Part shown: in pieces, positions 1 through 49,619 of the stretch
How positions within the stretch are numbered: the first letter of the stretch is position 1
How the letters are laid out: every line of letters starts with the position of its first letter
Origin: Cyanobacteria bacterium P01_F01_bin.150
Lineage (GTDB): Bacteria > Cyanobacteriota > Cyanobacteriia > CAKZMO01
DNA length: 64,000 nt
Direction: 5' to 3'
Assembly: GCA_039189765.1 (NCBI GenBank)
Contig: JBCCYL010000012.1
Location: 42,798-106,797 of the forward strand
Translations under genes and position numbers: made by a program
Notes under the pieces: generated by a model
The model's database searches: none
Told to the model about the DNA's origin: nothing
What the model saw: only the letters and a program-made list of their open reading frames with translations

Positions 1-280
1 GATTGTCCGTGCAGAGCTGCCCACAACATCAGAAAAGTGTCGTCATATTCACTAAACGGGCTTATCTGGAATCTAGGCTTTGCCATCAACTTCTCTCCAA
101 CGACTGATCAATTATCACATGCAGCAATAATTCCCAGCCACGAACGCACTATGAATGCAATTTGTATCGCTTTTAGATCGATATTGGATCGAAATCAATA
201 TGTTTATGTTAGCATATTGATATGGCACGTGCCACGGCACATAAACATAAGTTCCCGTAGTACATGCCAAGTGATGATGA

Positions 281-610
281 TTGATATTCGATGTAAACCT
301 AATGACAGAGAGAGTGGAAGCTAAATTTGATGACACGCCACGGTATGGCCCCGATCAGGTGCGATGGGTGCTGTCACGTGTGAGGGGTAAAACACTGTCC
401 GACAGAACCTGGATGCGGTACCTGAAATATGGCCGAGTTTCTAGGGATGAGGATAAGATGTATGGCCCAAGTGAGCTAGTGCATTTGATGGATTTAGCAA
501 TACATCTCTTGCATGGCGGGACTTACGGCGAATTTGAAGAGATTAAATTTGGGGGCGGGCCAAAACCAGTTAACCCCGCTCAAGTAGATGTTCAATATGA
601 GGTGATTTGA
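281..610 (+). CDS. Small putative DNA-binding protein (MerR/HTH-like); first gene of the FtsK-like operon
   Basis: Pattern LSDRTWMRYLKY...MYGPSELVHL resembles a winged-HTH recognition helix plus wing. AT-rich leader upstream. Confidence 0.4.
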   Translation: MIFDVNLMTERVEAKFDDTPRYGPDQVRWVLSRVRGKTLSDRTWMRYLKYGRVSRDEDKMYGPSELVHLMDLAIHLLHGGTYGEFEEIKFGGGPKPVNPAQVDVQYEVI

Positions 611-1077
611 AGATGGCGATTAATAAAGGATTCGGTGAAGGCAACAGCGCAACAAAGCAATCTAAGACGGAGCCTAAAAGCACTTCAAAGGCTAGCTCTG
701 AAAAGGTTTCAGCATCTGCTTTTGACATCGTTAACCAAGGTTCTCAGTCAGCCCAGATGATTGAGGGGTTGCTGCAAAATAACGGTGCAGCACTGAATGA
801 AAGTGTTGATCGATTGGCGGATCAACGAGAGCAAGAAATAGGGATGAATATGGCCATGAGATTGCATCCTGACGTACAGGCGGCAAGGGCTTTGGGCTAC
901 GCGGTAAATTTTCTCAGCAATTGCGATCGCAGTCCCGTAGATCTTTCGCGTTTGGGGCAGTCGCAGGCGTTGCAACCTGTACAGCCCTTGCAGCTTGCAT
1001 CTTTGCAGCACTTGTACGAGGCGAGAGCGTCTCACGGGAAAGCCCAGCAGATCCAGGGCAGCAGCGAACAGAAGTAG
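607..1077 (+). CDS. Hypothetical protein (helical, Q/S-rich)
   Basis: 156-aa ORF overlapping the stop of the upstream gene. Confidence 0.6.
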   Translation: MKMAINKGFGEGNSATKQSKTEPKSTSKASSEKVSASAFDIVNQGSQSAQMIEGLLQNNGAALNESVDRLADQREQEIGMNMAMRLHPDVQAARALGYAVNFLSNCDRSPVDLSRLGQSQALQPVQPLQLASLQHLYEARASHGKAQQIQGSSEQK

Positions 1078-1277
1078 AAGCAATCGCACCCGTAAAAAGG
1101 TGTGAGGCAAATAGGCATTCTGTAAATTACAGGTATCAGCTTTTGTCTTGTCGGCAGCTTGAAAAAAATAATTCCGATTTCTGGGATTCTGGGCAAAAAT
1201 GAACGATGCATTGGGGGTTCCAGCCTTTTTCGATGCAGTGATGCAGTGGAAATGCAGTGAATTAAGGAGGTGATTTT

Positions 1278-1586
1278 GTGGTGAATCGACGCTCAATAAA
1301 CGTATTTTTAGGCGGTGTAGTTGGATGCGCGATCGCCAGTTTTGGGTACTTAGTTTGGTATATGGCAGATGATGGTGAGTTGTCTGCTCGGGGCACAAGA
1401 GACATGATTATTTGCATGGTCAGTGTTGGTGGGGGCGCAACGGTTGGATCTCTGATTGGCCATATAGGCACTGGGAAAAAGCTCAGCACAGAAGAAGTGG
1501 TTCGTTATTGGCTTCAACAAAATCAGACTATCTTGTCTCTCAGTCCTGAAGCGATGGCAGAGATTAAGGAGGTTGTCGATGCTTAA
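1278..1586 (+). CDS. Small two-TM membrane protein
   Basis: Two Gly-rich hydrophobic segments; AAGGAGG RBS upstream. Confidence 0.7.
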   Translation: MVNRRSINVFLGGVVGCAIASFGYLVWYMADDGELSARGTRDMIICMVSVGGGATVGSLIGHIGTGKKLSTEEVVRYWLQQNQTILSLSPEAMAEIKEVVDA

Positions 1587-2304
1587 GGTATTAGGACTTT
1601 TTCGGCATTGGCCAATCCTTCTTTTGGCCTCGCTGCTTATTGGCTCAGCCATAAATGGGCGCAAGACTGAACAACCAACTGTTGTTAGCCCAGAGATTGA
1701 TGAAAGGCTGTTGGACTACGTGGCTGAATCTGGTGAGCGTGGCAAGCAGATTGAGGAGCGCTTAAGTACAATCGAGCAAGCTGCATTGCCTACAGTCCAG
1801 CAACAGCAAGCCGACCAAAAAGAAATTATGACAACTCTCAATGAGTTCCGTGATTTTGATAAGCACGCCTGGGGAGTTTTTGATGCCATGATCTTGGCTA
1901 AGTCCTGGGAGATGTTTGACGAAGCTGACCGCTTAGCTCGTGAGAATCATCATTCTATTGAATGGGAGATTGCAGCAAAAGCGACTAGTGTAAAGGACCA
2001 GTTATTCGCTCTATCTAATCCTCAGCAGGGCTTGATATCAATGGCGGATGGTCCGCAAAGAGACCAGTTTAGCGATGTAGTTACAGATGCCTTGGCTCTA
2101 TCTGCATTGATGGGGCAATTGATGGCTGACTCTAGCCCTAACCGAACTGAGGTTAATTCAAAAGCATTGGTTAGCGCATCTGAGTCCCTCAGTTCAGCTT
2201 TGTATAGTACTGCTTATCGCAATATTCCACTAAGGACAGTAGGACTTCCCCAAGTTAAGCCGTTTGAAGAGCAACAGGACGAGGTGCAGAATGCCTCAAA
2301 CTGA
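1573..2304 (+). CDS. Membrane-anchored coiled-coil protein
   Basis: N-terminal hydrophobic helix followed by a helical E/Q-rich region; AAGGAGG RBS before ATG 1579. Confidence 0.7.
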   Translation: MSMLKVLGLFRHWPILLLASLLIGSAINGRKTEQPTVVSPEIDERLLDYVAESGERGKQIEERLSTIEQAALPTVQQQQADQKEIMTTLNEFRDFDKHAWGVFDAMILAKSWEMFDEADRLARENHHSIEWEIAAKATSVKDQLFALSNPQQGLISMADGPQRDQFSDVVTDALALSALMGQLMADSSPNRTEVNSKALVSASESLSSALYSTAYRNIPLRTVGLPQVKPFEEQQDEVQNASN

Positions 2305-3541
2305 AGCGAAAGTCCCTAACCCCCATTTAGCGTTGGCCTCTTTAGTTTGTAGTGCATCTGCTGCGTTGATAGGGTGGAATTCATTGGGCACCAGTTTAAA
2401 CGGAATCCTTCAAGCGTCTACGTTTGCTGTCCCTCTTCATTATGTTGGAGTTGGCATTCGAAAAAAAAATCAGCTTACATGGTCTGACCATAAGGCGATC
2501 GCTCCTATGATTTGGTCTGCCCTAGTCGATGGAGCTAAAGCTGAACAGCAGTCAACAATTGCTCCGATGATTAAGGAAATGAGGGCTATTCCTGGCGTGG
2601 ATCGCATAAACATCCCGTCTTTGGACTTATCTCCATTACTTAATCATTCGACAATTGTCACGGCTCCTACAGGGACAGGAAAGAGCTTTTTTATGAGTTT
2701 GTTGTTAACCGAATGGATTAAAGCAAATCCCGGATGTCCATTAAAGATTTGCACGATTGATACATTCAAACGTAATCAGACTTGGATGGGAATAGGGTTG
2801 CAGCTTTCATGGATTCAGCGAATGTACATTACTCTTGGCTATAAATACAGGGACCATGCTAAAGATTTTTCTACGGCTATTCACTTAGAGACAGTAGACG
2901 AGGTTTCTAGGCTTTATAACCTTATGCAATCTCGTTCGGAGGAAAGGGCACAAGTTGGCCCAAATGGAGAGATGGACTTAACCCCATCTCTTGTAGTCAT
3001 TGATGAACTTCCCGAATTTTTAGGGTTTCTCAATGACAAAGAAAAATTTCCGGAAGGCCCGGAAATTAGGCGTCAATTAAAAATGCTTCTAACCCGTGGT
3101 CAAGGCTGGAATTGCTTAGTTTATGGCATAGCTCAGGATGATGCAGTTGGAATGCTTGGCTTTTCTCAAGCGGAAAAGAAGCAGGTCATGTTATGCAATC
3201 TGTATAACGAGACTGTTTCTGGCAACGGCGATCGCGCTGCACTTATTAACAGCATTAAAGGTCGTCGGTTCCTTTTGGAGCATGGGGGCAAGGGTGTAGT
3301 CATGCCCATTCCGCATTTGGACAAAGAACCCGAAATTGACTTTTCACACTTGACAAAGGACGGCAGCTTTTACGCATGGATAGAAGAACTTAAGCCATTG
3401 ATTGTCAAGTTCAAAGAGCAAGGGGCATCAATTACTGAGGTTTGGCGTGAGTTAACTAGTCGTGCTGATTTTCCTGGTAAAAAACGTAATGGAACGGACA
3501 ACCCCCATTACGCGTATTTCACTGATCAAATCTGGAGATAA
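2291..3541 (+). CDS. FtsK/HerA/VirD4-superfamily P-loop ATPase with N-terminal TM helices
   Basis: Walker A APTGTGKS, Walker B LVVIDE, then LLTRG...LVYGIAQ (FtsK-like arginine-finger/Gln motif region). Two N-terminal TM segments and a small helical C-terminal domain. ATG 2291 follows GAGG. Confidence 0.85.
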   Translation: MPQTEAKVPNPHLALASLVCSASAALIGWNSLGTSLNGILQASTFAVPLHYVGVGIRKKNQLTWSDHKAIAPMIWSALVDGAKAEQQSTIAPMIKEMRAIPGVDRINIPSLDLSPLLNHSTIVTAPTGTGKSFFMSLLLTEWIKANPGCPLKICTIDTFKRNQTWMGIGLQLSWIQRMYITLGYKYRDHAKDFSTAIHLETVDEVSRLYNLMQSRSEERAQVGPNGEMDLTPSLVVIDELPEFLGFLNDKEKFPEGPEIRRQLKMLLTRGQGWNCLVYGIAQDDAVGMLGFSQAEKKQVMLCNLYNETVSGNGDRAALINSIKGRRFLLEHGGKGVVMPIPHLDKEPEIDFSHLTKDGSFYAWIEELKPLIVKFKEQGASITEVWRELTSRADFPGKKRNGTDNPHYAYFTDQIWR

Positions 3542-3544
3542 GTT

Positions 3545-3760
3545 ATGAAGTTGGATAAATTTTGCGTGATTTTTGTGGGCGGAGCTTTACTGCTCGGAAT
3601 TATCACCCCCGCTGATTTTACTGAAACACTGAAGGGTATGCTTTGGACTGGGTTCCAAGCAGCGGGGGTGATTGATAAGCAGGTCGAGAGCAGCAATGAA
3701 GAAGTTAAGGAGCGCGATCGCCCATGGAACCAGAAGGTCAAGGTCAACATCAACGAATAG
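3545..3760 (+). CDS. Small membrane protein
   Basis: N-terminal hydrophobic helix followed by GIITPADF. Confidence 0.65.
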   Translation: MKLDKFCVIFVGGALLLGIITPADFTETLKGMLWTGFQAAGVIDKQVESSNEEVKERDRPWNQKVKVNINE

Positions 3761-3948
3761 AGCCTAAAACGCCTTGGTTTGTTGATCTGGAAAATACTTT
3801 GTTCTTCCTGATTGGGTTAGCGTGCTTTGTTGTCGGCTGCGACCTGATAGGCGTTAACCCAATCCATTTTATGGGGGATAAGTTAGGAGATTCGTTTGAG
3901 TTGGTGCATGGATGGGTAAAAGATTACGGAGAGGACTCAAGTGATTAG
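3724..3948 (+). CDS. Small membrane protein
   Basis: Hydrophobic helix followed by GVNPIHF. Confidence 0.6.
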   Translation: MEPEGQGQHQRIEPKTPWFVDLENTLFFLIGLACFVVGCDLIGVNPIHFMGDKLGDSFELVHGWVKDYGEDSSD

Positions 3949-4120
3949 CTTTACCACATTGTTTTGGCGATTACTTTTACTGACCACGATCACGGGGTTT
4001 TGTGGCAAAGACCCGATTACATTTTTTGTCCACATGCCTGAAGATTTCATGGATGGGTTTAACGATCATCCCGCTGAGCTTCGGTATCGTCCCGGTTGGC
4101 AGAATTGGGGACAGTTCTAA
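3941..4120 (+). CDS. Small membrane protein, 59 aa (not in the ORF track)
   Basis: GTG 3941 after GAGG. Translates MISFTTLFWRLLLLTTITGFCGKDPITFF...; its TAA overlaps the next ATG (TAATG). Confidence 0.65.
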   Translation: MISFTTLFWRLLLLTTITGFCGKDPITFFVHMPEDFMDGFNDHPAELRYRPGWQNWGQF

Positions 4121-5466
4121 TGGAATGGGTAACGATTGATGTTCCGAATGATGTAGAAACAGGACTGACCACTAGAGAAAAGGGTGGTGGATGGGTCTGG
4201 GGTAAAGCAGGATCTCCGGAAGATCGGCAAACTGCACAGAGCAAAAAGCTTACTGAAGAGCAACGACTTCGTGATTTGGCTGAAGCCATGGGTGGGGTAG
4301 CAGCCGCAAAAGTGCAGGACGCAAAATCGGCTGCTGCTCAAAGAGCGATTAGTTTTGCGGCTGCTCCGGTGCGAAGTGTCTGGGAGGCGCATAAGCAAAA
4401 TTTGCAACTCACTTGCATGGTTCTCGGGGTGATTGCTATTCATGGTTCGGTTAGCTGGATGCGCCCTGCATTGAATACTGCATTTTCAGTTGCTACGTTT
4501 GACCCAATGGGTAGGCTTATAGATGAATTTAAGCCTGTTAGCTTTTCCAGCCAAGATACCACCCCACTGAAGAAAGGTGATCGCGTTGGTGAATTCATTG
4601 TGACCAGTGGATTTGGCCATAGAAATGCACCTACCGCAGGAGCGTCAACATTTCATCGTGGAGTTGACCTGAATACTCCTACAGACACTCCTGTTTATGC
4701 CCCAAAAGCAGGGAATGTAGACTGTCAATACGAAGCTGAAGGTTATGGCCATTACATTAATGCGCAGTGGGGAATGATTGGCCATTTAAGCGAATGTTAC
4801 GGAGGATTCAAGCAGCAGGGAGACTTGATAGGATTGACGGGCGCAACGGGGATAGGAACTGGCCCCCATGCTGACATTCGAGAGGGAGCACATCCTAATT
4901 TCATAAACCCTACGAGGGGCTTTGTAGAGGCAGTGATGGGCATCCAATCTCAAAAAGGGGTAAATCTCACCAGTCATACAATCTCAGCCACCGCCAACAC
5001 CAAAGCGTTTCTTGATGTGATCGCATGGGCCGAGGGTTCGGACTACGATACGTTAGTTGGCGGTGGGAAGATCCACGATCTGTCTCATCATCCAAATCAG
5101 CGAGTCTGGATCAACACGATTAACGATTACTCCACAGCCGCAGGCAGGTATCAGTTCATCGATACGACGTGGAATCAATATTCCAGGGATTTAGGTTTAC
5201 GCGATTTTTCTCCAGCGTCTCAAGACAAAGCAGCGATCGCCGTTCTTGCCAACAATGATGTCCCAGGGATGCTGGAGCGCGGAGCTATAGAGCAAGCTTT
5301 CTGTGCAGTGGGCAATGTATGGGCGTCGTTGCCGTGCAATAGCTATGGTCAACCTCAAGAAAACAGTGATGAGCTAGTCCAGAAATATTATGAGTTCGGT
5401 GGTGGGAGCCTGCACCCTCCTCGATCGCGCACGTTGGATTTATTGAATAGAGGAGAAAGGATTTAA
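4120..5466 (+). CDS. Membrane-anchored M23 peptidase fused to a lambda-type lysozyme/lytic transglycosylase
   Basis: M23 motifs TSGFG, HRGVD, GYG, TGPH. Lysozyme motifs AFLDVIAWAEG, STAAGRYQF, DFSPASQD, WASLP. One TM segment precedes the catalytic domains. Confidence 0.9.
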   Translation: MEWVTIDVPNDVETGLTTREKGGGWVWGKAGSPEDRQTAQSKKLTEEQRLRDLAEAMGGVAAAKVQDAKSAAAQRAISFAAAPVRSVWEAHKQNLQLTCMVLGVIAIHGSVSWMRPALNTAFSVATFDPMGRLIDEFKPVSFSSQDTTPLKKGDRVGEFIVTSGFGHRNAPTAGASTFHRGVDLNTPTDTPVYAPKAGNVDCQYEAEGYGHYINAQWGMIGHLSECYGGFKQQGDLIGLTGATGIGTGPHADIREGAHPNFINPTRGFVEAVMGIQSQKGVNLTSHTISATANTKAFLDVIAWAEGSDYDTLVGGGKIHDLSHHPNQRVWINTINDYSTAAGRYQFIDTTWNQYSRDLGLRDFSPASQDKAAIAVLANNDVPGMLERGAIEQAFCAVGNVWASLPCNSYGQPQENSDELVQKYYEFGGGSLHPPRSRTLDLLNRGERI

Positions 5467-5666
5467 TGGCATGGGCAAACGATTCGATTAAGCTGCCAGC
5501 AGCACAACGTATATTTCCGAAGTTTCAGATAGAGCCACACAAGATAGACGGGAATGCCGCATTCTACACTGCTGAAGTGAATGGGCAGATGATGCAGTCT
5601 ACGGCGTTAACGGTTTTGTGTGAGCGGATAGTAAAAGTATTGATGGGGGCAGAGGATGAGAATTAG
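5466..5666 (+). CDS. Hypothetical protein
   Basis: TAATG-coupled to the upstream gene, with an RBS. Confidence 0.55.
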   Translation: MAWANDSIKLPAAQRIFPKFQIEPHKIDGNAAFYTAEVNGQMMQSTALTVLCERIVKVLMGAEDEN

Positions 5667-5827
5667 TTTTTGCATCAGTTGCATAGGAATTCCGTTGTTT
5701 CAACCATTGACTCCATGGGGTAGATTACGGTTTGGCGTTAAGTGGAGGCCAGGGCATTTTTGCAAAGCTTCTCCGAAACCGTATATTTTCTTTTTTGATT
5801 CGTGGATTAAGTATAGAGGCAAAGTCC

Positions 5828-6328
5828 GTGAGCAGCGGTAAAGTGCATGACTTCGCAGGTAAGGCAACGGTAGGCGCAACACTTCCCATTGCAGTGGTTT
5901 ATCTCCCCGTGGACCTAGCGATCTGCTACGGCCTGTTTAGCATATTAGGCTTTACTCACCTTGGTCCAGACCTGGACAGCAATAACTTTAGGGCCAACAC
6001 CATCCGCCGATGGGGAAGGGCAAAATGGCTGTGGTATCCGTTCAATCGGTTAGTCAGCCCTCATCGTGGCCCTACTCACGTTCCGCTGTTGGGAGCCGCT
6101 TTGGTTTTGTTTTGGCTACTGTTATTGACTGGGGCAGTTGGGCTGATTGCCGTGATGAATGGATGGGTGAGCTTGCCTAGTTTTGAGGTTCGGTGGCTGT
6201 GGTATTTGTTTGTGGCGTTTGTAGCGGTGGCTATTCAGCATGTGGTGCACTTGGCCTTTGATGGCTACCGCTTGTGCCAAGTAGCAGTTGGAGTAGGGGG
6301 TGCGGTTGTATTAGGGATGATTTTGTAG
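5828..6328 (+). CDS. DUF2227-like metal-binding membrane protein
   Basis: SG-x-x-HD start (GTG 5828), PDLD, HRG-x-TH and HxxHLxxD motifs with several TM helices. Confidence 0.75.
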   Translation: MSSGKVHDFAGKATVGATLPIAVVYLPVDLAICYGLFSILGFTHLGPDLDSNNFRANTIRRWGRAKWLWYPFNRLVSPHRGPTHVPLLGAALVLFWLLLLTGAVGLIAVMNGWVSLPSFEVRWLWYLFVAFVAVAIQHVVHLAFDGYRLCQVAVGVGGAVVLGMIL

Positions 6329-6475
6329 GGGGATGTGATAGATAAAAAGTAACTGGGCAGTATTTCATGGTGCGATCAAAATATCCGGCCACACCAGCAG
6401 AGAGGTGGCCAACATGCATGCTTCAAGGCACCCCAGGTCCGCATTTTGTAAAGTGAAGAGAGTAGGAGGGGAAAG

Positions 6476-6799
6476 GTGAGTTTTGAAACTATTTATGCAT
6501 TAGCAAAGAGTCGCGGACTCAAGTTCTGTTCTTTTCGCGAGTTAGAAGATGACTTTATTTGGGTTTCGTTTGCATGGCCTGGTGGAATGAGACTTGTAAA
6601 CGGAGATAATTGGCCAATTCCAGATTATCAGATAAAGAAAAGCGAATTGCTTGATTTAATGAAGCCAATGGCAGGGAGGTGGAGAGATACCGCTTTTGCA
6701 AAAAAGCTAACAGAAAAAGGGTATGCTGTTCAGCCATGGGAGATCAAGCCGATCAAAGATCCTCCTCAAACAAACTCCGCTCCGCCTTCCGCCTCCTAG
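6476..6799 (+). CDS. Hypothetical protein
   Basis: 107-aa ORF with AGGAGG RBS. Confidence 0.55.
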   Translation: MSFETIYALAKSRGLKFCSFRELEDDFIWVSFAWPGGMRLVNGDNWPIPDYQIKKSELLDLMKPMAGRWRDTAFAKKLTEKGYAVQPWEIKPIKDPPQTNSAPPSAS

Positions 6800-7562
6800 C
6801 AAGCCCCGGCACTAACTCCAGTTTGCCATCGCCATCTTGATCGCCTTTATTCCATAACTCAAACGCCGCAGCCGCCTCACGGTAGTTGCGGTTATTTATT
6901 TCTCTGAGCACAGTTGAGTCACCGAAGCCACCCGCCCCAATGTTGTAGCAAAGCAACACACAGGCGCTAAACATATTGCTGCCAATGGGGTAATGTAAGC
7001 GGGACCATACAGCAGACTCGAAAAACTCCAGGTCTTTAGCCAGCAATTTGTTCGCGTCAGCTTCGCTGATTGTCTTGCCGTTGCGAACATCCGCACGGGT
7101 GACGCTCTTTGTGTGGCCCCATCCAATAGTGGGATGACCAGTGGGGCAGATGTAGGCTGCAAATGGCTTATTAGGGAGGCCGTTACCTTCGAATTCTTTC
7201 AATATGGCGATCGCTTTTTCGTTAGTGCGCTGCCTGGGCACATAATGGCCATCCATGATCAGCTTGCCCAGCGCTGCCCCCGTTTGCGGACCAAATACGC
7301 CATCGGGTTTAACCGAGTAGTTAATACTCAACTTAGTTTGCAGTGCGATCATCTTTGCCCCTGTAGCTGGCAATCGTTGCACCCATTCGCTTGGGAGCTT
7401 GCCGTTAGCGAATACTTCCCCCATGGCTCGGCCTGTTTGGCCCCCAAAAAGCCCATCCTCGGCTAAAGGGTGGGCAGGGAGAACCTTATTTAATGAGGAT
7501 TGGAGCTGATGAGCAAGCTTTGGTGTAGCTAGGGACGTTATCAGATGGTCTGCTGCAAGCAT
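6753..7562 (-). CDS. Endolysin: GH24 lysozyme with N-terminal peptidoglycan-binding repeats
   Basis: LKEFEG...AYICPTGHPTIGWGHT, YNIG, GLARRRKAERSLF; two DG-x-FG-x-x-T peptidoglycan-binding motifs. Confidence 0.92.
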   Translation of the reverse strand: MLAADHLITSLATPKLAHQLQSSLNKVLPAHPLAEDGLFGGQTGRAMGEVFANGKLPSEWVQRLPATGAKMIALQTKLSINYSVKPDGVFGPQTGAALGKLIMDGHYVPRQRTNEKAIAILKEFEGNGLPNKPFAAYICPTGHPTIGWGHTKSVTRADVRNGKTISEADANKLLAKDLEFFESAVWSRLHYPIGSNMFSACVLLCYNIGAGGFGDSTVLREINNRNYREAAAAFELWNKGDQDGDGKLELVPGLARRRKAERSLFEEDL

Positions 7563-7644: not shown

Positions 7645-8922
7645 ATGATCGTCACTTTAGCCTGTCTAATTTTCGTGCTCTTTCAAAGTGTCATCACGCT
7701 AATTACTCAGAAATCCAACGCTGAGAATTATGCAGCTAGGCAATATTCAATGGCTCGGTTAGACGAATTGACAGGGCTAGGAAATAGGCGAGCTTTTACG
7801 GAGGCATGCTCAGAGTGGGTGAATAGGGATGACTTTATTGTGGTCAGAATAGATTGCAATGGACTGAAACGCGCCAATGATGTTTATGGGCATGAATTTG
7901 GTGATCGAATCATTAAAGAGACCGCTCAGAATATTAGTAGGATTTGTCGCACTGGCCAAGCATTCCGTACCGGGGGGGATGAGTTTACGATTTTCTGGGA
8001 CGCGGATATCGAGATTAATTCCTTGGCCCAGAAGTTTTCTTACTCCCTGAATGTTTTTGTTGAGGATATGGATTACAAAATTTCTTGTGCAATCGGATTA
8101 GCTCACAAGCATTTATTCGTATCACTCCACGAAGCTGTTTGTGTTGCAGATGAAGAGATGTATCGATCCAAAATAAACAGTCTAGACTGGAGTGTGTGTG
8201 ATGACTTTGACATGAGTCTTTATCGCATTGCACAAGGGCTCAAAACTGAATTTGGCAGCACTCGTCACTTAGAGCTTCATTATCAACCGATAATACATTT
8301 AACATCTGGTCAGATTACATCCTATGAGGCGTTGATCCGTTGGAATCGAGACAGCGGATTTGTTGAACCGACTAACATATTGGCTGCGGTAAAAAAGTAT
8401 CATTTATCTGTTGATTTTGCACTGTGGACGCTTCGGCAAGCCCAACAACAATGGGACACTTGGGGACGCCCTCCTATCACAATTGCCGTCAATCTCTCTG
8501 GGTCTTGGTTGTTAAAGCCAGCAGTATTTAATGCAGTGGCCCGTAGTCAGGGATTGACTATTGAAATAACAGAGGATGAGGCTATCGAAGACCCTAAGAT
8601 CCTCGATAAAATAGATGAATTGCGCACACTCGGGATAAAAATATCCATTGATGATTTTGGGGCGCGTTGGTCAGCGATTGCTCAGCTAAGCAGGCTCAGT
8701 GAGAGTTGCGATCGGGTGAAGATTGACAAGGCGCTGCTCAAGGATATTCGGTTATTTGAGGGGGCGCACGGCCTGATAGATTCGCTGAATCTGCCGACAG
8801 TGGCTGAGGGTATAGAAACTCAAGACATGTTGATCGCAATTAGGGACGCTGGTGGGCAATTTGGGCAGGGTTACCTGTTGGGCAGGCCGATGAAGGGTAG
8901 TGATATTGGGATGGGGGAATAG
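7645..8922 (+). CDS. Membrane-anchored GGDEF-EAL diguanylate cyclase/phosphodiesterase
   Basis: DELTGLGNRR, NDVYGHEFGD and RTGGDEF; then YQPI, EALIRW, AVNLS, EITE, DDFG, KID, AEGIE and QGY. Confidence 0.95.
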   Translation: MIVTLACLIFVLFQSVITLITQKSNAENYAARQYSMARLDELTGLGNRRAFTEACSEWVNRDDFIVVRIDCNGLKRANDVYGHEFGDRIIKETAQNISRICRTGQAFRTGGDEFTIFWDADIEINSLAQKFSYSLNVFVEDMDYKISCAIGLAHKHLFVSLHEAVCVADEEMYRSKINSLDWSVCDDFDMSLYRIAQGLKTEFGSTRHLELHYQPIIHLTSGQITSYEALIRWNRDSGFVEPTNILAAVKKYHLSVDFALWTLRQAQQQWDTWGRPPITIAVNLSGSWLLKPAVFNAVARSQGLTIEITEDEAIEDPKILDKIDELRTLGIKISIDDFGARWSAIAQLSRLSESCDRVKIDKALLKDIRLFEGAHGLIDSLNLPTVAEGIETQDMLIAIRDAGGQFGQGYLLGRPMKGSDIGMGE

Positions 8923-9949: not shown

Positions 9950-10651
9950 GTGAGAGTTACTGCACTTGTTGATACGTATTTGAAAAAAGATCAGTCGAAA
10001 CAGGCTTTTGAGCTGCCTGACAACGAAAAAGTTTTTGTTGAGGCTGGGCGAGTCTATACGGTGGACCCGCTGGAGTTTGAAAACGACGATCACACTAATC
10101 CATTAGCATATGGCCACGCCAAAATTGACATAAGTTATGGAGCGGGGGAGTGGTGGATATTCCTAGATCATTGGCGATATGAGCATGAGCAATCAGTAGT
10201 AGAAGTCCCAACTGTGTTGCCAGAATGGGACACCGTTGACTGGAATAATTTTGCAGCTCCAGTGTCAAAATACTTCACGGTAGGCGAAGTGATGAACATG
10301 TCCAAAGCTCGCATGCCTAAGGCGATTGAAGTAAAGCGCAATATCATCAAAATCGCCCGTGCTGTTGATCAAGTGAGAGAAGAATGGGGAGGACCTCTAG
10401 GCGTTACATCATTTTATCGTCCGTGGCATATTAACCGGAGAATTGGGTCGAGGTCGAGCAACCATCCAAGGGGTACTGCCATGGATATTCGATGCTTGCG
10501 AGGGAACACAAAGGGGTTGGAGCGAATGGTAGAGAATGACTTTTACAACGCTGGCCGCTGGGATGGCGGGGTCGGTCGAGGCGCTAGCTATAGAGGGTTT
10601 GTCCACCTTGACTTAAACGACGAGTACGGAAAACGCATCTGGAATTACTAG
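9950..10651 (+). CDS. Peptidase M15-family Zn cell-wall peptidase with N-terminal SH3-like domain
   Basis: YFTVGE, VTSFYRP...N...G...SNHPRGTAMDI, GFVHLD. Confidence 0.9.
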   Translation: MRVTALVDTYLKKDQSKQAFELPDNEKVFVEAGRVYTVDPLEFENDDHTNPLAYGHAKIDISYGAGEWWIFLDHWRYEHEQSVVEVPTVLPEWDTVDWNNFAAPVSKYFTVGEVMNMSKARMPKAIEVKRNIIKIARAVDQVREEWGGPLGVTSFYRPWHINRRIGSRSSNHPRGTAMDIRCLRGNTKGLERMVENDFYNAGRWDGGVGRGASYRGFVHLDLNDEYGKRIWNY

Positions 10652-20863: not shown

Positions 20864-22672
20864 ATGTCTCTTCAAGCTATCGCCAACCGTCCGCAATCTC
20901 GTCAAGTTTTACGCTATCAAGCTGATAATGCAGATGCGTTACAGGAGGTGCGGGATTTCTTGGAGGGAGGATTGGTCTACAATCCTCTTCATTTGAGTAG
21001 TGATGAAGTATGCCAGATCCCTACATTGTCTGAAGAGGGACTAAAAAGCTTACTTGAAAGAAAAGCCACGTCATCCCGTTGGATTGGTTGGAAACTGTGG
21101 CGTCAGTCTAATGGGTGGGGCGAGTCAGAGTATCGATCCTTTGAGCAGTTGCTGGGGGACTGGAAAACTCGCTCTAACATCCTGCGTTGGATGCGGCAAA
21201 ACGAAGATCTGTGCTTTGAATGCGGATTGGCCGAGCGTAACTATGATTGCGGTGATCTCACCACTCATTTCTATCCTGATTCTCTAACAGGGATCGGGGT
21301 TGACGGGCCTCGCAGTGCTGAGGAGTTCTGTCAACTATACGTCACAGTCATGAATAAGCAACGGGTGTGGCATTCTTCGAAGCAAATCCCGTTCAGCCCC
21401 GTAGTTAATGTCGCTTGCTTCCCTAATTACAATCGGTTGCCATTGTGGGTTAAGCAGGGTCTTGTAAAGTATGCTCCCAACCATGCTCAAATTGGCGGCG
21501 ATCGCATCGGCAACATCTGGGAACTCCCCACAATGGTAAAAGCCTGGAAGTGGGGCAACTTCCCTAAGCTCATTGCTAAGAAAATCGGCAAGCTATCCGT
21601 CAAGTCTCGCTTAATAGCGGGTTTAGCGTGGGGCGCGGTCGATAGCGACTGGGAGAAAAAAGAAAAGGCTCGTGCTGAGATTGTTAATGATTTCTGGTTA
21701 TGGTTCCGAAAGTTATCTAATAGTTCAGTCATCGAATTGTTGGGTTATATCAATAGTCGTAACGACGACAACTATTGCGACTGCAATTTTCTTGCTACTT
21801 CTAAGCATGTCCGCATTTGTTTAGAAATTTTGCTGGATTTACCATATGAGGCATTGGCAGAAGAGTGGGAGCAGGGCGATCGCGACGAAAACGATTTCAA
21901 TCGGCCCAGTGACGAGCGTATCCTGGAAATAATCGCCTCGTCTGGCGATCCTAAGCAGACGTGTGAAATGCTTCTAGGATGCTCCGGCAAGGCTACAGTT
22001 TCAGCGTTTTTGAACTGCGCTCACTGGGATAAAGTAAAGTGGGCTGCGGCTCTAGCATACGGGAGTCCTGACTCTTGCCAAAAGATTCTTGCGCAATCTC
22101 CGCAGATTGCGTACCAAAGAGATGCCGTTGAGTTTCTCTTAACGCTACCGATGAGTGCCCGAATCCGACTTCTGGGCTGCACCACGTTCAAGTACCGAGA
22201 GCGGGAGTGCGAAATCACAGACGACCATGTTCGTGACACTGGCTATCTTTGGAGCAACATCCAGGACAAGCCGGAATTAGGTCGTGTTCGCAATTGGTTC
22301 TCTATTCACGAACAACTTAGCTCTGCGTTCGTTGAAGAACTACCTGATGAAGCTTTGCCCATCCCCCATGGATGGGAGCATTTAGATGGCCTATCTGCTG
22401 TGGATGGTTCTTGGAGTCTTGAATTCCCACGCAGAGTAGCGACTTTGAAACACTGGGGCAAAGCGCAAAAGAATTGCGTTGGTGGTTATGGTCCCGCCAT
22501 CAAGCAGGGGCGATCGGTTGTGTTTGCAGTTCGTGAGCAAGGGTTACTCACTCATACAGTTGAGTACTGTGGCAAGAGCTGTAATCAGTTCTATGGCTAT
22601 GGAAATGGTTACGCAGACACCCAAATTGAGCTATCTGTTAAGCACGCCATTCACCAAGCGATCGGGGCATAA
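20864..22672 (+). CDS. PcfJ-like domain protein
   Basis: C-terminal IHEQL...LKHWGKAQKNCVGGY...GRSVVFAVR...TVEY...QFYGYGN. Confidence 0.8.
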   Translation: MSLQAIANRPQSRQVLRYQADNADALQEVRDFLEGGLVYNPLHLSSDEVCQIPTLSEEGLKSLLERKATSSRWIGWKLWRQSNGWGESEYRSFEQLLGDWKTRSNILRWMRQNEDLCFECGLAERNYDCGDLTTHFYPDSLTGIGVDGPRSAEEFCQLYVTVMNKQRVWHSSKQIPFSPVVNVACFPNYNRLPLWVKQGLVKYAPNHAQIGGDRIGNIWELPTMVKAWKWGNFPKLIAKKIGKLSVKSRLIAGLAWGAVDSDWEKKEKARAEIVNDFWLWFRKLSNSSVIELLGYINSRNDDNYCDCNFLATSKHVRICLEILLDLPYEALAEEWEQGDRDENDFNRPSDERILEIIASSGDPKQTCEMLLGCSGKATVSAFLNCAHWDKVKWAAALAYGSPDSCQKILAQSPQIAYQRDAVEFLLTLPMSARIRLLGCTTFKYRERECEITDDHVRDTGYLWSNIQDKPELGRVRNWFSIHEQLSSAFVEELPDEALPIPHGWEHLDGLSAVDGSWSLEFPRRVATLKHWGKAQKNCVGGYGPAIKQGRSVVFAVREQGLLTHTVEYCGKSCNQFYGYGNGYADTQIELSVKHAIHQAIGA

Positions 22673-44540: not shown

Positions 44541-45942
44541 GCTGTTTTCTCCCTGACATACTGAATTGAGCAAGCAAGTTCTTTAGCCCAGTCGGGCAAA
44601 TCGCCCTGATTGATGAGGTGGACTAAAGTCTCATTAGTTGATTTCCTAAGATCTGATGCAGTGGTTTCGTGCTTGAATGGCAGTAAACTCGTGTGCTGAA
44701 TTTTTGGACCTCCACTGGTTAATCCGTTCATTAGGTTTGACCAACCGAGTGATGCCGTCCAGTTCATCTGATTTACGTGTTGTTGATGCTGCTTTTCATA
44801 AAATTCGATACACTGCTTTACTAGCCAGATTGGCTGACGACCAAAGTTTTCGGCGTTGAACCGTTCATCTCCTGTCCTGTAGGATTGGATTCGCCAAAAG
44901 TATTCGCCCCAGTCAATTGCGGGTCTGTCCCAGATTTTTCTGGCAAGCTCTGTTGCTTTCCCACTGGTTCATTTTTGGCTGAAGAAGAACTAGAAGACTC
45001 TCCTATTTGCCCTGTTCGGACTTCGTTAAAAAATTTAAGAAGCTCTTCTTGCAAAGGTTCATTAATTTCCTGATTCGTATCGGCTTCAGACCATTCAATT
45101 CCAGTCCGATAAGTGCTTCCCTCTAAGACAAAGCCAACTGAATTAGGCTCAATAACATCTGAAGTTTTTTCTACCTCTAATCTCTGGGAAACTTCATTTA
45201 CTTCACCGATGCTTAATGCAGCAGCTACAGTTACTTTTACAGGACCGAACTTAACGCGATCGCCTACACTAAGAGGTTCATCAATAGGCTTAATAGTCAA
45301 TATGGTCGAACCCAGAGGTGCTCTTTCTAGCACGGTGACAGCATGAAGCAATCGATTCTGCACCATAGTTGTAGCCGCCTCAAATTTAAGCTCAGGGATC
45401 TCTTTGTTCGACTCACGAATGATTGCCATCTGCTCATCAGTAGCGAGCTGAGCAATATTGATAGTGTCTGAGACCAGTTGAGCTTTTGCTGATATATCGA
45501 ATTCAGCAGGAATTACGTGAAAAGTATTGCCTGAATCATCAGCGCTATCGGGGCCATCTAGCATTAATATCTTTTCGCCATCTCGTAGCCATTCTGTGCC
45601 TTCGACCCCATGGTCAGGCTTAAGCGATACTTTGGTGTCGCCTGCATGATATTTCTTAACGAGTCCAATCGTTGAGACAGTGCGTAGATCTAGAACTGGG
45701 GCAAGATACAGTTTTCTTAAGCAATGATAAAAACTCTGTCCAGACTGCTCTTTCAAGACTAGCGCCAAATCTTGCAAAACAAGCTTGCTAGCATCCGAAC
45801 GATCAACACGCTTCTGCATCGATGGAGGCATTTCGCAGGTTAAAGCTCCAGCCTCTTTCAATAGATAGATCTCACCAATCAAAGGGTTGCCAACTTTAAC
45901 GATCTGATGTTGTGGACGTGTTGCATACGGGAGTCTTGGCAT
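44537..45942 (-). CDS. Tail assembly chaperone G (44821-45942) and -1 frameshift product GT (ending at 44537)
   Basis: Slippery G GGA AAG at 44956-44962. The -1 frame has a TGA just upstream and then runs open (ATELARKIWDRPAIDWGEYFWRIQ...) to the tape-measure start. Confidence 0.88.
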
Positions 45943-49380: not shown

Positions 49381-49619
49381 TCAGTTTCCTTGACTATAGT
49401 TATAGCCCCATTATCTGCCTCTATTATTTGTTGCTTGAATAACCTCACAAAGTCATCAAATTCATTTGTGGGCAGGTTATTCGGAGCCGATGAGACGAAA
49501 TGCTTTTCAGGATGAGATTCCATCATGACCTTGAGGGATGTTTTCTCCTCATCAGATAGATAGACGCTAATAGCCTGATCAGACGATGAAAATATTTGAT
49601 TGCCTATTTTGACTATCAT
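49377..49619 (-). CDS. Hypothetical protein
   Basis: ATGA-coupled on both sides. Confidence 0.55.
   Translation of the reverse strand: MIVKIGNQIFSSSDQAISVYLSDEEKTSLKVMMESHPEKHFVSSAPNNLPTNEFDDFVRLFKQQIIEADNGAITIVKETE

What the first reader, a model, noticed from the sequence alone, without database searches (positions are those of the whole stretch)
281..5466. Phage-borne FtsK/TraB-like ATPase operon with membrane proteins and a dual wall hydrolase: candidate cell-to-cell DNA spreading system
Seen: a tightly coupled operon encodes an HTH-like protein, a coiled-coil protein, five membrane proteins, a TM-anchored FtsK/VirD4-type ATPase and a TM-anchored M23-lysozyme fusion. No relaxase or VirB4 is visible in the window. 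The phage already has TerS/TerL for packaging and separate endolysins, so this module is not needed for either job. Known: Streptomyces plasmids move dsDNA with a single FtsK-like TraB plus small Spd membrane proteins and wall hydrolases. Inference: this may be an analogous machine that moves phage DNA across septa or between cells of a (possibly filamentous) cyanobacterium without virions.
Basis: partly seen in the sequence, partly recalled or inferred. Interest (0 to 1): 0.8.

Follow-up and report, generated by a model that had tools for sequence, protein, structure and literature searches.

The report
Phage-plasmid membrane ATPase wall-hydrolase module
A cyanobacterial phage carries a gene block (a membrane-anchored FtsK/TcpA-like motor ATPase, small membrane proteins and a membrane-anchored cell-wall hydrolase) that recurs in the same order on cyanobacterial plasmids and other phages, so it is a real, undescribed mobile-element machine that may move DNA between cells, though that function is not shown.

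Summary
The gene block is real and its order is conserved. The window is the right-hand 64 kb of a 106.8-kb phage-like contig in a metagenome-assembled cyanobacterial genome. The ATPase has no Pfam family above cut-off. Only 14 proteins match it among 1.84 billion representatives. By fold its core is an FtsK/TcpA/HerA-type motor (Z 14.6 FtsK, 14.2 TcpA, 13.7 HerA, statistically tied) behind an N-terminal helical hairpin.

A profile finds the family in 14 of 401 genomes of the class. In 11 of 12 further loci the order is the same: small membrane protein, bitopic protein, ATPase, one to three small membrane ORFs, membrane-anchored M23 hydrolase. Two complete Oscillatoria acuminata plasmids show that order with a GH108 hydrolase.

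The hosts of the block are plasmids (RepA/ParAB, DUF3854/CyRepA-like, ParM) and phage-like regions, and the two kinds interleave in the ATPase tree. No VirB4 was found. A relaxase shares the contig in only 1 of 12 cases. All 14 positive genomes carry hetR (211 of 401 overall).

My best reading, at 0.4, is a minimal conjugation-like DNA-transfer apparatus, with the TraB/Spd and TcpA systems as analogues. Function, DNA binding and oligomer state remain untested.

The parts
281..610 (+).
   Evidence: ORF. No family in Pfam, PHROGs, NCBIfam or PADLOC. No membrane segment. The HTH label is unverified. In L039, L040, L043 and L044 a conserved protein of about 190 aa sits at the equivalent position.
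607..1077 (+).
   Evidence: No family. Coiled coil not tested.
1278..1586 (+). Small membrane protein, 102 aa, two predicted membrane segments
   Evidence: Hydropathy segments at 9-27 and 43-61, and the ribosome site AAGGAGGT upstream. A two-segment protein of about 100-140 aa occupies the same position in L018, L019, L020, L038, L039, L042 and L044.
1573..2304 (+). Bitopic protein, 243 aa: N-terminal membrane anchor followed by a long helical part
   Evidence: Membrane segment at 6-24. A protein of the same kind sits at the same position, overlapping the ATPase start, in 11 other loci. Eight of those form one sequence family. The window copy is not detectably homologous to them.
2291..3541 (+). 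Membrane-anchored P-loop ATPase of the FtsK/HerA superfamily, 416 aa (the ORF is open from 2264). It has an N-terminal helical hairpin, a RecA-like core at residues 106-357, and a small conserved helical C-terminal domain (window 3323-3538).
   Evidence: Gene call P0001. Walker A G130/K131 and Walker B D238/E239 are invariant or nearly invariant across 13 members. AF2 model has pLDDT 79.9. Foldseek top hit is TcpA 6o1x at E 1.2e-5. VIA gives FtsK Z 14.6, TcpA 14.2, HerA 13.7 and VirB4 11.5. The C-terminal domain model has pLDDT 83.7 and four helices, with best Z 3.9.
3545..3760 (+). Small membrane protein, 71 aa, one membrane segment
   Evidence: One to three small membrane ORFs lie between the ATPase and the hydrolase in the other loci.
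3724..3948 (+). Small membrane protein, 74 aa, one membrane segment
3941..4120 (+). Small ORF, 59 aa, hydrophobic N-terminus (borderline)
   Evidence: Hydropathy peak 1.46.
4096..5466 (+). Membrane-anchored double wall hydrolase, 456 aa. It has a cytoplasmic N-terminal stretch of about 100 aa, a membrane segment at 103-121, an M23 endopeptidase domain (about 166-280) and a lambda-type lysozyme domain (about 300-436). The likely true start is the ATG at 4120.
   Evidence: Peptidase_M23 at E 2.9e-9. PDB 1am7 lambda lysozyme at E 6.9e-29. phrog_90 endolysin at E 2.1e-35. Membrane segment. HRGVD is intact, but H-A-D stands where HxH is expected. Homologous over residues 44-280 to the contig C22 hydrolase (E 9e-16).
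5466..5666 (+). Small ORF, 66 aa, start overlaps the hydrolase stop
   Evidence: No family.
5732..6328 (+). Polytopic membrane protein, DUF2227 (named 'metal-binding' in Pfam), probable last gene of the block
   Evidence: PF09988 at E 4.5e-15. Four to five membrane segments. A DUF2227 gene also ends the block in L020 (E 7.1e-37; E 1e-7 to the window protein).

Best explanation
This is the phage-borne copy of a conserved, so far unnamed envelope module of cyanobacterial mobile elements.

The core is a membrane-anchored ATPase with an FtsK/TcpA-like motor domain and a small conserved helical C-terminal domain. It is always flanked in the same way. Upstream lie a two-segment small membrane protein and a bitopic protein. 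Downstream lie one to three tiny membrane proteins and one or two membrane-anchored peptidoglycan hydrolases (an M23 endopeptidase plus a muramidase or lytic transglycosylase).

The most likely mechanism is inferred, not shown. The ATPase would form a ring in the cytoplasmic membrane and pump the element's DNA. The hydrolases would open the thick cyanobacterial wall locally. The small membrane proteins would build or gate the passage. Together these would give a minimal conjugation-like transfer of phage or plasmid DNA to a neighbouring cell without virions.

Shown: the genes, the folds, the conserved order, carriage by both plasmids and phages, and the absence of VirB4 and (mostly) of relaxases.

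Inferred: ring formation, DNA as substrate, cooperation of the parts, and direction of transport.
For: 1. Fold. The ATPase core (residues 106-357) matches FtsK (Z 14.6, rmsd 3.7, 213 aligned) and the pCW3 conjugation coupling protein TcpA (Z 14.2, 222 aligned). TcpA is also the top Foldseek hit at E 1.2e-5. The L019 homologue matches phrog_1358 'FtsK/SpoIIIE-like' at 5e-8.

2. Architecture. An N-terminal helical hairpin followed by one motor domain and a small C-terminal domain is the layout of TraB, TcpA and FtsK, not of soluble HerA. A membrane segment was predicted in 9 of 11 homologues.

3. Conserved order. A membrane-anchored M23 hydrolase follows the ATPase in 11 of 12 further loci. A GH108 hydrolase does so on 2 of 2 Oscillatoria acuminata PCC 6304 plasmids. 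Hydrolase partner domains vary (SLT, Phage_lysozyme, lambda-type, trypsin-like) while the position is kept.

4. Carriers are mobile elements of two kinds.
- Plasmid-like: C22 with RPA RepA, ParB and ParA; DUF3854/CyRepA1-like Rep in L018, L040, L041 and L042; two complete circular plasmids.
- Phage-like: the window itself; L038 with portal, prohead protease and capsid; L019 with tail collar and fibre; L043 with a virion protein.
- The two kinds interleave in the ATPase tree, with starred clades 99/96 and 100/99.

5. The phage already has TerS/TerL and two other lysins.

6. No VirB4 (PF03135) was found in 4 of 4 genomes tested. Of 12 module contigs in 11 genomes, only C22 carries a relaxase from the three families searched. 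pOSCIL6304.01 is typed non-mobilizable.

7. All 14 positive genomes of 401 carry hetR, against 211 of 401 overall. The hypergeometric P is 1e-4 by genome and 1.2e-3 by genus, not corrected for kinship.

8. Precedent. Streptomyces TraB plus Spd membrane proteins form a DNA-translocation complex. [quoted passage not shown]
Against: - No direct evidence exists for DNA binding or transport.
- The C-terminal domain has no significant structural match. Foldseek found none at E <= 0.001. The best VIA Z is 3.9, to the CENP-B HTH domain, and several HTH domains follow at Z 3.0-3.6. It is all-helical, not a winged helix like FtsK gamma.
- No array of short direct repeats (a clt candidate) was found in window 1-7000.
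- FtsK, TcpA and HerA are tied within 1 Z unit.
- At sequence level the best PDB profile hits are HerA-type defence ATPases: 8j4u at E 9.4e-6 and 8yho at 1.4e-4, against FtsK/SpoIIIE 4nh0 at 0.13.
- PF01580 (FtsK_SpoIIIE) did not appear for any of 13 members.
- The only PADLOC hits are weak mad8 matches in 8 of the 15 ATPases scanned (best 5.7e-8).
- C22 carries a canonical TrwC relaxase and a VirD4-type coupling protein elsewhere on the contig, so on that plasmid the module may serve an ordinary relaxase-driven system.
- The window hydrolase has H-A-D in place of the HxH motif.
- The small membrane proteins of the window have no detectable homologues in the other loci.
- The genome is a metagenome bin, so host assignment rests on binning plus HIP1 density.
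Confidence: 0.4

Rival explanations
1. A wall-remodelling or protein-export device that moves no DNA. The membrane ATPase would control or energise the membrane-anchored hydrolases, as FtsEX controls EnvC/PcsB-type LytM factors. Alternatively it would export a protein, as the FtsK-like EssC/EccC ATPases of type VII secretion do. The benefit to the element could be wall opening for release, filament breakage or effector delivery.
For: - The constant partners of the ATPase are wall hydrolases and a bitopic helical protein.
- M23 domains in some loci lack HxxxD (L019, L020) or carry H-x-D (window, L041). This recalls degenerate LytM activators.
- EccC/EssC ATPase domains are close structural matches at Z 12.4-12.9.
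- L018 has weak EccCb/EssC NCBIfam hits at 5e-4 to 6e-4.
- No DNA-binding fold was shown for the C-terminal domain.
Against: - The motor fold is FtsK/HerA-type, not ABC.
- No WXG100-like substrate gene or type VII membrane component matched.
- 8 of 12 M23 domains keep both canonical motifs.
- It is not obvious why plasmids would need wall remodelling without transfer.
Confidence: 0.2
2. An exclusion or defence module carried by mobile elements. A HerA-like membrane ATPase with membrane and wall-active effectors would block or abort infection or entry by competing phages and plasmids.
For: - The best sequence-profile PDB hits are HerA ATPases of anti-phage systems: 8j4u at 9.4e-6 and 8yho at 1.4e-4.
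- HerA structures score Z 13.1-13.7.
- Sub-threshold Pfam DUF87/HerA hits occur in 6 of 13 members.
- Weak PADLOC mad8 hits occur in 8 of the 15 ATPases scanned.
- Prophages and plasmids often carry defence genes. Neighbours include Cas3 (L040), NACHT (L043) and a SocA/Panacea antitoxin (L044).
Against: - No other PADLOC component matched any module protein.
- No nuclease, Sir2 or DUF4297 partner is present.
- The N-terminus is a membrane hairpin, not HerA's barrel domain.
- The constant partner is a wall hydrolase, which no known HerA system has.
- The mad8 matches have E-values no better than 5.7e-8, and most list no matched stretch that passes the threshold on its own.
Confidence: 0.12
3. 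A segregation aid. An FtsK/SpoIIIE-like pump would clear or deliver copies of a large low-copy element across closing septa of the host, working with the neighbouring actin-like partition system.
For: - An actin-like ParM/ALP gene lies just upstream of the block in L019 and L042 (ALP_N) and on both Oscillatoria plasmids (annotated ParM/StbA). C22 probably has one too: weak BLAST similarity to the L019 ALP at E 0.001, but no Pfam hit.
- The fold is FtsK-like.
- The family was found only in hetR-positive genomes.
Against: - FtsK-type septal clearance needs no wall hydrolases or small membrane proteins.
- The window phage contig has no ParM, ParA or ParB hit among the ORFs scanned.
- ParM adjacency may only reflect a shared plasmid backbone.
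Confidence: 0.12
4. An ordinary phage lysis cassette (holins, spanin-like proteins and a signal-anchored endolysin), with an unrelated ATPase gene inserted.
For: - Small membrane ORFs directly precede a membrane-anchored lysin whose C-terminal domain is lambda-lysozyme-like.
- PHROGs files that domain under endolysins.
- A canonical endolysin gene lies 1.3 kb downstream on the opposite strand.
Against: - The same block, ATPase included, sits on plasmids that show no virion genes in the stretches examined.
- The ATPase-hydrolase pairing holds in 11 of 12 loci.
- The phage has two other lysin candidates.
Confidence: 0.04

Closest known systems
TraB plus Spd proteins of Streptomyces conjugative plasmids and AICEs (for example pSVH1)
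   Same: - A single membrane-anchored FtsK-like ATPase sits in a translationally coupled operon with several small membrane proteins.
- No VirB4 is present and mostly no relaxase.
- Hosts are multicellular.
- Spd homologues are also reported on some actinophages.

The TraB/Spd features come from passages of PMC4447253 and PMC3429521.
   Different: - No sequence-level membership: PF01580 was not matched.
- The protein is much shorter (416 aa, against the 772-residue TraB constructs named in PMC4447253).
- The C-terminal domain is all-helical with no winged-helix match.
- No clt-like repeats were seen.
- Dedicated M23 plus muramidase hydrolases are constant partners here, whereas in pSVH1 wall binding, not hydrolysis, is reported.
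- The hosts are diderm cyanobacteria.
TcpA coupling protein and the Tcp locus of Clostridium perfringens pCW3 (the FtsK-like T4CP of Gram-positive T4SS; PDB 6o1x)
   Same: - It is the top Foldseek hit and is tied for the best Z.
- It has an N-terminal membrane anchor.
- The locus also contains small membrane proteins and a membrane-anchored bifunctional wall hydrolase. That description of the Tcp locus is recalled knowledge. Anchored VirB1-like hydrolases in monoderm systems are stated in PMC4027160.
   Different: - Tcp-type systems need a VirB4 ATPase, a VirB6-like channel protein and a relaxase.
- No VirB4 was found here.
- No conjugation family in NCBIfam matched any module protein.
- Identity to TcpA is only 15-19%.
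MPF_C, the cyanobacterial class of type IV secretion or conjugation systems (model: Nostoc PCC 7120 alpha plasmid)
   Same: It is a cyanobacterial mobile-element transfer apparatus (PMC4027160, MPFC section read).
   Different: MPF_C loci are defined around VirB4 and have VirB3/6/8/9/10 homologues. PF03135 VirB4 is absent from the four genomes tested. I could not run the MPF_C profiles themselves.
HerA ATPases of anti-phage systems (Sir2-HerA, DUF4297-HerA; PDB 8j4u, 8xaw, 8ziq)
   Same: They have the same superfamily core. They are the best sequence-profile hits in the PDB, at Z 12.5-13.7.
   Different: - This protein has a membrane hairpin instead of the N-terminal barrel.
- It has no effector partner.
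- Its constant partner is a wall hydrolase.
- No PADLOC system was recognised.
Unannotated members on Oscillatoria acuminata PCC 6304 plasmids pOSCIL6304.01 and pOSCIL6304.02 (WP_015163260.1, WP_015152081.1, both 'hypothetical protein')
   Same: The order is ParM, two small ORFs, a protein of about 360 aa, an ATPase of about 480 aa, two small ORFs, then a wall hydrolase. tblastn from the L040 and window ATPases gives E 6e-9 and 7e-4.
   Different: The hydrolase is annotated as GH108, not M23. The carriers are plasmids with a DUF5906 Rep, not a phage. Identity is only 24-29% over part of the protein.

Membership tests
FtsK/SpoIIIE/TraB-type DNA translocases | RecA-like motor domain with the FtsK fold | tested here: met
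   VIA Z 14.6 (6t8o), 14.5 (2ius) and 14.2 (TcpA 6o1x) over residues 106-357. HerA at 13.7 is within the tie margin.
FtsK/SpoIIIE/TraB-type DNA translocases | Sequence match to Pfam FtsK_SpoIIIE (PF01580) above cut-off | tested here: not met
   PF01580 is not among the families matched by any of 13 members at E <= 1. PDB profile gives FtsK/SpoIIIE 4nh0 at E 0.13 only. One homologue (L019) hits phrog_1358 'FtsK/SpoIIIE-like' at 5e-8.
FtsK/SpoIIIE/TraB-type DNA translocases | N-terminal membrane anchor | tested here: met
   AF2 helices 11-31 and 36-59. Hydropathy peaks 1.44 and 1.23 in the window protein. Segments at or above 1.6 in 9 of 11 homologues.
FtsK/SpoIIIE/TraB-type DNA translocases | C-terminal winged-helix DNA-recognition domain (FtsK gamma, or the TraB clt-binding domain) | tested here: inconclusive
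   The domain model has pLDDT 83.7 and four helices with no strands. No Foldseek hit at E <= 0.001. Best VIA Z is 3.9, with weak HTH-type rows.
FtsK/SpoIIIE/TraB-type DNA translocases | Cis-acting array of short direct repeats (clt or KOPS-like) recognised by the motor | tested here: inconclusive
   No multi-copy short repeat family in window 1-7000. The site could lie elsewhere or be too short to detect.
FtsK/SpoIIIE/TraB-type DNA translocases | Hexameric ring and DNA-stimulated ATPase | not testable with these tools
Needs biochemistry or EM.
Type IV secretion / conjugation (MPF classes, including MPF_C and the Gram-positive Tcp type) | VirB4-family ATPase | tested here: not met
   PF03135 has 0 matches in G000, G228, G174 and G099. 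VirB4 structures score lower than FtsK/TcpA, at Z 11.5.
Type IV secretion / conjugation (MPF classes, including MPF_C and the Gram-positive Tcp type) | Relaxase on the same element | tested here: not met
   TrwC, Relaxase and Mob_Pre searches found a match on only 1 of 12 module contigs (C22), and none on the window's contig C12. Other relaxase families were not searched. pOSCIL6304.02 is typed MOBP by PLSDB.
Type IV secretion / conjugation (MPF classes, including MPF_C and the Gram-positive Tcp type) | Membrane-anchored VirB1-like wall hydrolase | tested here: met
   M23 plus lysozyme or SLT domains behind a membrane segment.
Type IV secretion / conjugation (MPF classes, including MPF_C and the Gram-positive Tcp type) | VirB3/VirB6/VirB8-like membrane components | tested here: inconclusive
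   No Pfam or NCBIfam conjugation family matched any of the small membrane proteins.
HerA-type anti-phage defence systems | HerA N-terminal barrel domain plus an adjacent effector (Sir2, DUF4297 or nuclease) | tested here: not met
   Residues 1-105 of the model are helices and a disordered linker. No effector family in the neighbouring genes. PADLOC gives only weak mad8 hits to the ATPase.
Phage holin-endolysin lysis cassette | Restricted to phages and adjacent to, or acting as, the phage's lysin | tested here: not met
   The same block occurs on plasmids. The phage has separate lysins at 6753-7562 and 9950-10651.

The most novel reading that the evidence does not exclude
The module is a cyanobacterial counterpart of Streptomyces TraB/Spd. 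It would be a relaxase-independent pump for double-stranded DNA that, with its own wall hydrolases, opens a passage through the peptidoglycan between neighbouring cells of a filament. That would let plasmids, and a tailed phage genome, spread from cell to cell without virions. This would be a second, independently evolved FtsK-type conjugation system in a multicellular bacterium. It would also be the first case of a tailed phage carrying a working cell-to-cell DNA transfer apparatus.
Probability: 0.2. Interest if true: 0.9.

Novelty: new variant of a known kind. Interest (0 to 1): 0.7.

Why it matters
Conjugation in cyanobacteria is almost unstudied. The one catalogued class (MPF_C) is defined around VirB4, and the 2014 survey that defined it found no experimental work on it (PMC4027160).

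Here is a compact, VirB4-less and mostly relaxase-less ATPase-hydrolase module. It is annotated only as 'hypothetical' on complete plasmids of a cultured strain, Oscillatoria acuminata PCC 6304. It is shared by plasmids and tailed phages, and in the sample it was found only in hetR-positive genomes.

If it moves DNA, three things follow.
- It would explain how plasmids typed 'non-mobilizable' travel in filamentous cyanobacteria.
- It would add a second FtsK-type transfer system outside actinomycetes.
- It would make virion-independent spread of a phage genome directly testable.

Tried and rejected
- Single-protein searches were nearly blind to the family. The search for homologous proteins found the query itself plus one other protein. 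The order-level genome search found only the window's own genome. tblastn against phages found nothing.
- The search for related loci found nothing in viral, genome or metagenome contigs with A1 or A3.
- A blastn of the whole block against phage records found no match.
- Profile comparison of the bitopic-protein family (A4) with the window protein gave probability 0.05, and with the C22 protein 1.3. Homology is therefore not shown.
- The Atlas search with the bitopic protein gave no usable hit.
- The C-terminal domain gave no clear fold match.
- No clt-like repeat arrays were found.
- The sigma-70-type promoter scan found fewer sites than the shuffles did (6 against 11.3), so it is uninformative.
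- The look-up of sequencing runs listed no RNA holder. The one DNA holder is a marine metagenome that may be the source.
- Complex prediction (ATPase with the hydrolase's cytoplasmic tail) was not available.
- The idea that the 1289-aa window protein (59414-63283) and the 1288-aa L044 protein mark related phages was rejected, since BLASTP gives E 7.4.
- Cluster look-up of ten relatives gave almost no names. One cluster is labelled 'MAG: ATP-binding protein [Actinomycetota bacterium]'.
- Literature searches turned up no paper describing this module. I judged them from the search listings and did not open most of the papers. No supplements were read.
- Three hits on short contigs (L031, L032, L036) were not examined. 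Nor were the six weak partial hits (G236, G018, G111, G027, G188, G379).

Full report
**Where the window lies**

The window is bases 42,798-106,797 of contig C12 (106,797 bp) in a 10.6-Mb, 350-contig genome. The only public run that holds the stretch is a marine metagenome, which may be the source of this DNA. I therefore take the genome to be a metagenome bin, and "same genome" means "same bin".

The window encodes the following:
- TerS, TerL and a portal
- a cement protein and a major capsid protein
- a 2,527-aa tape measure
- a sigma factor
- two lysins

The 42.8 kb upstream encodes replication and recombination functions, with no integrase among the ORFs scanned:
- an intein-bearing ribonucleotide reductase
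- ThyX, RusA and a cytosine methylase
- DnaB, RecT and SSB
- a Rha-like regulator and a TnpB

The nearest TerL is that of cyanophage PSS2 (107.5 kb), at 37% identity. The cyanobacterial HIP1 octamer occurs 56 times in the window, against 0.96 expected. Its density on C12 is 0.76 per kb, close to the bin's median of 1.08. The contig is thus a large tailed cyanophage or prophage whose composition fits the bin. The bin itself has hetR.

**The observation**

Hydropathy supports membrane segments in the following proteins:
- the 1278 protein (two segments)
- the 1573, 3545 and 3724 proteins (one each)
- the hydrolase (one segment)
- the 3941 ORF (borderline)
- the N-terminus of the ATPase (two moderately hydrophobic helices)

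The hydrolase combines an M23 domain with a lambda-lysozyme-type domain. Two labels are unsupported: "HTH-like" for 281-610 and "coiled-coil" for 607-1077. No library matched either protein.

The DUF2227 membrane protein at 5732-6328 probably belongs to the block. A DUF2227 gene ends the equivalent block in locus L020.

**The ATPase**

Pfam gives only sub-threshold DUF87/HerA and AAA_22 hits. An exhaustive HMMER search of 1.84 billion representatives found 14 proteins at E <= 0.001, five of them at E <= 1e-30.

In an alignment of 13 members, Walker A (G130, K131) and E239 of Walker B are invariant and D238 is nearly so. R215 and an A-V pair (285-286) are also invariant, and R326 and Y407 are nearly so. 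The C-terminal region is conserved.

The AF2 model (pLDDT 79.9) shows two N-terminal helices, a poorly ordered linker, a RecA-like core and a helical C-terminal domain. Foldseek ranks the pCW3 coupling protein TcpA first (E 1.2e-5), followed by FtsK and EccC, with DnaB chains interspersed.

The second-look aligner scored the core as follows:

| Match | Z |
|---|---|
| FtsK | 14.6 and 14.5 |
| TcpA | 14.2 |
| HerA | 13.7 |
| EccC | 12.9 |
| VirB4 | 11.5 |

At sequence-profile level the PDB hits are HerA-type ATPases first (9.4e-6), then EccC and FtsK/SpoIIIE at E 0.05-0.13.

The protein is therefore a member of the FtsK/HerA superfamily. Its domain layout (membrane hairpin, one motor, small C-terminal domain) is that of FtsK, TraB and TcpA, but it is not a sequence-level member of FtsK_SpoIIIE.

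I modelled the C-terminal domain separately. It is confident (pLDDT 83.7) and all-helical, but it has no significant structural neighbour. Foldseek found nothing at E <= 0.001. The best Z is 3.9, to a CENP-B HTH domain, and a few other HTH domains score Z 3.0-3.6. DNA binding is possible but not shown.

**Conserved order**

A profile search of whole genomes gave these results:
- A paralogous copy on contig C22 of the same bin.
- Strong matches in 3 other genomes of a 401-genome phylum sample.
- Matches in 14 of 401 genomes of a class sample at E <= 1e-15.

I examined 12 loci besides the window: C22, L018-L020 and L038-L045. In 11 of them the layout is the same:
1. a two-segment small membrane protein in most loci, then a bitopic protein of 170-340 aa whose end overlaps the ATPase start
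2. the ATPase
3. one to three tiny membrane ORFs
4. a membrane-anchored M23 protein

The M23 protein is either fused to, or followed by, a second wall-active domain. These are SLT in L018, L020 and L039, Phage_lysozyme in L041, an SLT-like motif in C22 (my reading of the sequence), and a trypsin-like protease in L038 and L039.

The exception is L045, which is also the weakest ATPase match. Three hits on short contigs were not examined.

Two complete plasmids of Oscillatoria acuminata PCC 6304 show the same order with a GH108-family hydrolase. All other genes of the block are annotated as hypothetical there.

Eight of the bitopic proteins form one sequence family. The window and C22 copies, and the window's small membrane proteins, are conserved in position only.

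**Carriers**

Plasmid-like carriers:
- C22 has an RPA-type RepA, ParB and ParA. It also has ArdA, a TrwC relaxase and a VirD4-type coupling protein about 42 kb away.
- L018, L040, L041 and L042 have DUF3854 proteins. The L040 protein matches NCBIfam "plasmid replication protein, CyRepA1 family" at 6.7e-53, just under its cut-off.
- The two Oscillatoria records are circular plasmids.

Phage-like carriers:
- the window itself
- L038, with portal, prohead protease-capsid and major head genes next to the block
- L019, with tail collar, fibre and tail proteins
- L043, with a virion structural protein

L039 has only a Rha-like regulator and a sigma factor. Adjacency in draft contigs does not prove that block and virion genes belong to one element.

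In a maximum-likelihood tree of 23 ATPases, phage-linked and plasmid-linked copies interleave:
- window plus C22, support 99/96
- plasmid L018 with phage-linked L019 and L020, support 100/99
- phage-linked L043 next to plasmids L040-L042, support 93/94

One caveat applies to C22. It has the lowest HIP1 density of all 176 contigs of at least 20 kb (0.05 per kb) and a lower G+C content (43.2% against a median of 46.8%). It may be mis-binned or recently acquired.

**What is missing**

- VirB4 (PF03135) has no match in the four genomes tested.
- Three relaxase families were searched in the 11 genomes that hold the 12 module contigs. Only C22 has one on the same contig. Other relaxase families were not searched, and several contigs are short.
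- PLSDB types pOSCIL6304.02 as MOBP-mobilizable and pOSCIL6304.01 as non-mobilizable.
- No NCBIfam conjugation family matched any of 54 module-region proteins.
- PADLOC gave only weak mad8 hits to the ATPases.

**Host range**

All 14 positive genomes of the class sample carry hetR (Peptidase_S48), which is present in 211 of 401. None of the 190 hetR-negative genomes has the module.

The hypergeometric P is 1e-4 by genome and 1.2e-3 by genus. These figures ignore kinship. The hetR-negative set includes many small-genome lineages, so the association is suggestive only. That hetR marks mainly filamentous cyanobacteria is recalled knowledge.

**Interpretation**

A membrane-anchored FtsK/TcpA-like motor is constantly paired with membrane-anchored wall hydrolases and small membrane proteins. 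Plasmids and phages carry it interchangeably, and it is surplus to the phage's own packaging and lysis genes. Such a block is most simply read as an apparatus that takes something through the envelope.

DNA is the most likely cargo. All the closest membrane-anchored relatives with this layout (FtsK/SpoIIIE, TraB, TcpA) handle DNA, and transfer is the one need that plasmids and temperate phages share.

The Streptomyces TraB/Spd system is the best analogue. Its authors already suggested that Spd homologues on actinophages might spread phage DNA (PMC4447253, passages read). I put this reading at 0.4.

On C22 and pOSCIL6304.02, which have relaxases, the same block might instead serve as a VirB4-less mating channel for a relaxase-driven system. 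My data do not separate the two variants.

The rivals are a non-DNA wall-remodelling or export device, exclusion or defence, septal segregation, and a lysis cassette. They are weighed in their own sections.

**Novelty**

Five full-text searches gave no paper describing this module. I read passages of four papers only: PMC4027160, PMC3429521, PMC13492992 and PMC4447253. I read no supplements.

The named plasmid copies are annotated as hypothetical. Its function is still to be shown.

Noticed in passing
window 7645-8922 (+): A GGDEF-EAL (cyclic-di-GMP turnover) protein is encoded on the phage contig just after the block (GGDEF 1.6e-18, EAL 1.7e-44). A GGDEF-EAL protein also lies near the weak ATPase relative in L045.
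   Followed up: no
window 49616-52102 (-): The portal protein (Phage_portal_3, 2e-45) is fused to a C-terminal 'InPase' inorganic-pyrophosphatase-like domain (2.2e-19).
   Followed up: no
window, whole length: The HIP1 octamer GCGATCGC occurs 56 times against 0.96 expected. The phage contig has nearly the host bin's density, 0.76 against a median of 1.08 per kb.
   Followed up: partly
G000 contig C22 (L007, L021-L024, L026): This plasmid-like contig carries the paralogous module. It has the lowest HIP1 density of all 176 contigs of at least 20 kb (0.05 per kb) and 43.2% G+C, so it may be mis-binned. It also encodes a 4,286-aa RHS-repeat protein, ArdA, a TrwC relaxase and a VirD4-type coupling protein.
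   Followed up: partly
window 20864-22672 (+): A 602-aa protein with a PcfJ-like domain (2.8e-6) sits in the phage contig. The family is named after a pCF10 plasmid gene.
   Followed up: no
L003:3-4655 (-) and L002:11043-12728 (-), upstream part of contig C12: A ribonucleotide reductase of more than 1,551 aa carries intein and LAGLIDADG domains. A TnpB/IS605 OrfB gene also lies inside the phage contig.
   Followed up: no
L039:11780-12319, L040:12257-12847, L043:6331-6909, L044:9723-10313: A conserved protein of about 190 aa with no family (pairwise E 1e-25 to 1e-58) sits at the head of the module in four loci that otherwise have different backbones. It may be the module's regulator or DNA-binding adaptor.
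   Followed up: partly
window 36990-44573 (-): A very long tape-measure protein of 2,527 aa (TMP_3, 2.7e-24).
   Followed up: no
Atlas neighbours of P0001: The nearest clusters by language-model features are unnamed ATPases of 441-575 aa, mostly from tailed phages (Uroviricota) and Cyanobacteriota. Some carry FtsK_SpoIIIE. Membrane or FtsK-like ATPases of this size may therefore be widespread in phages beyond this family.
   Followed up: no
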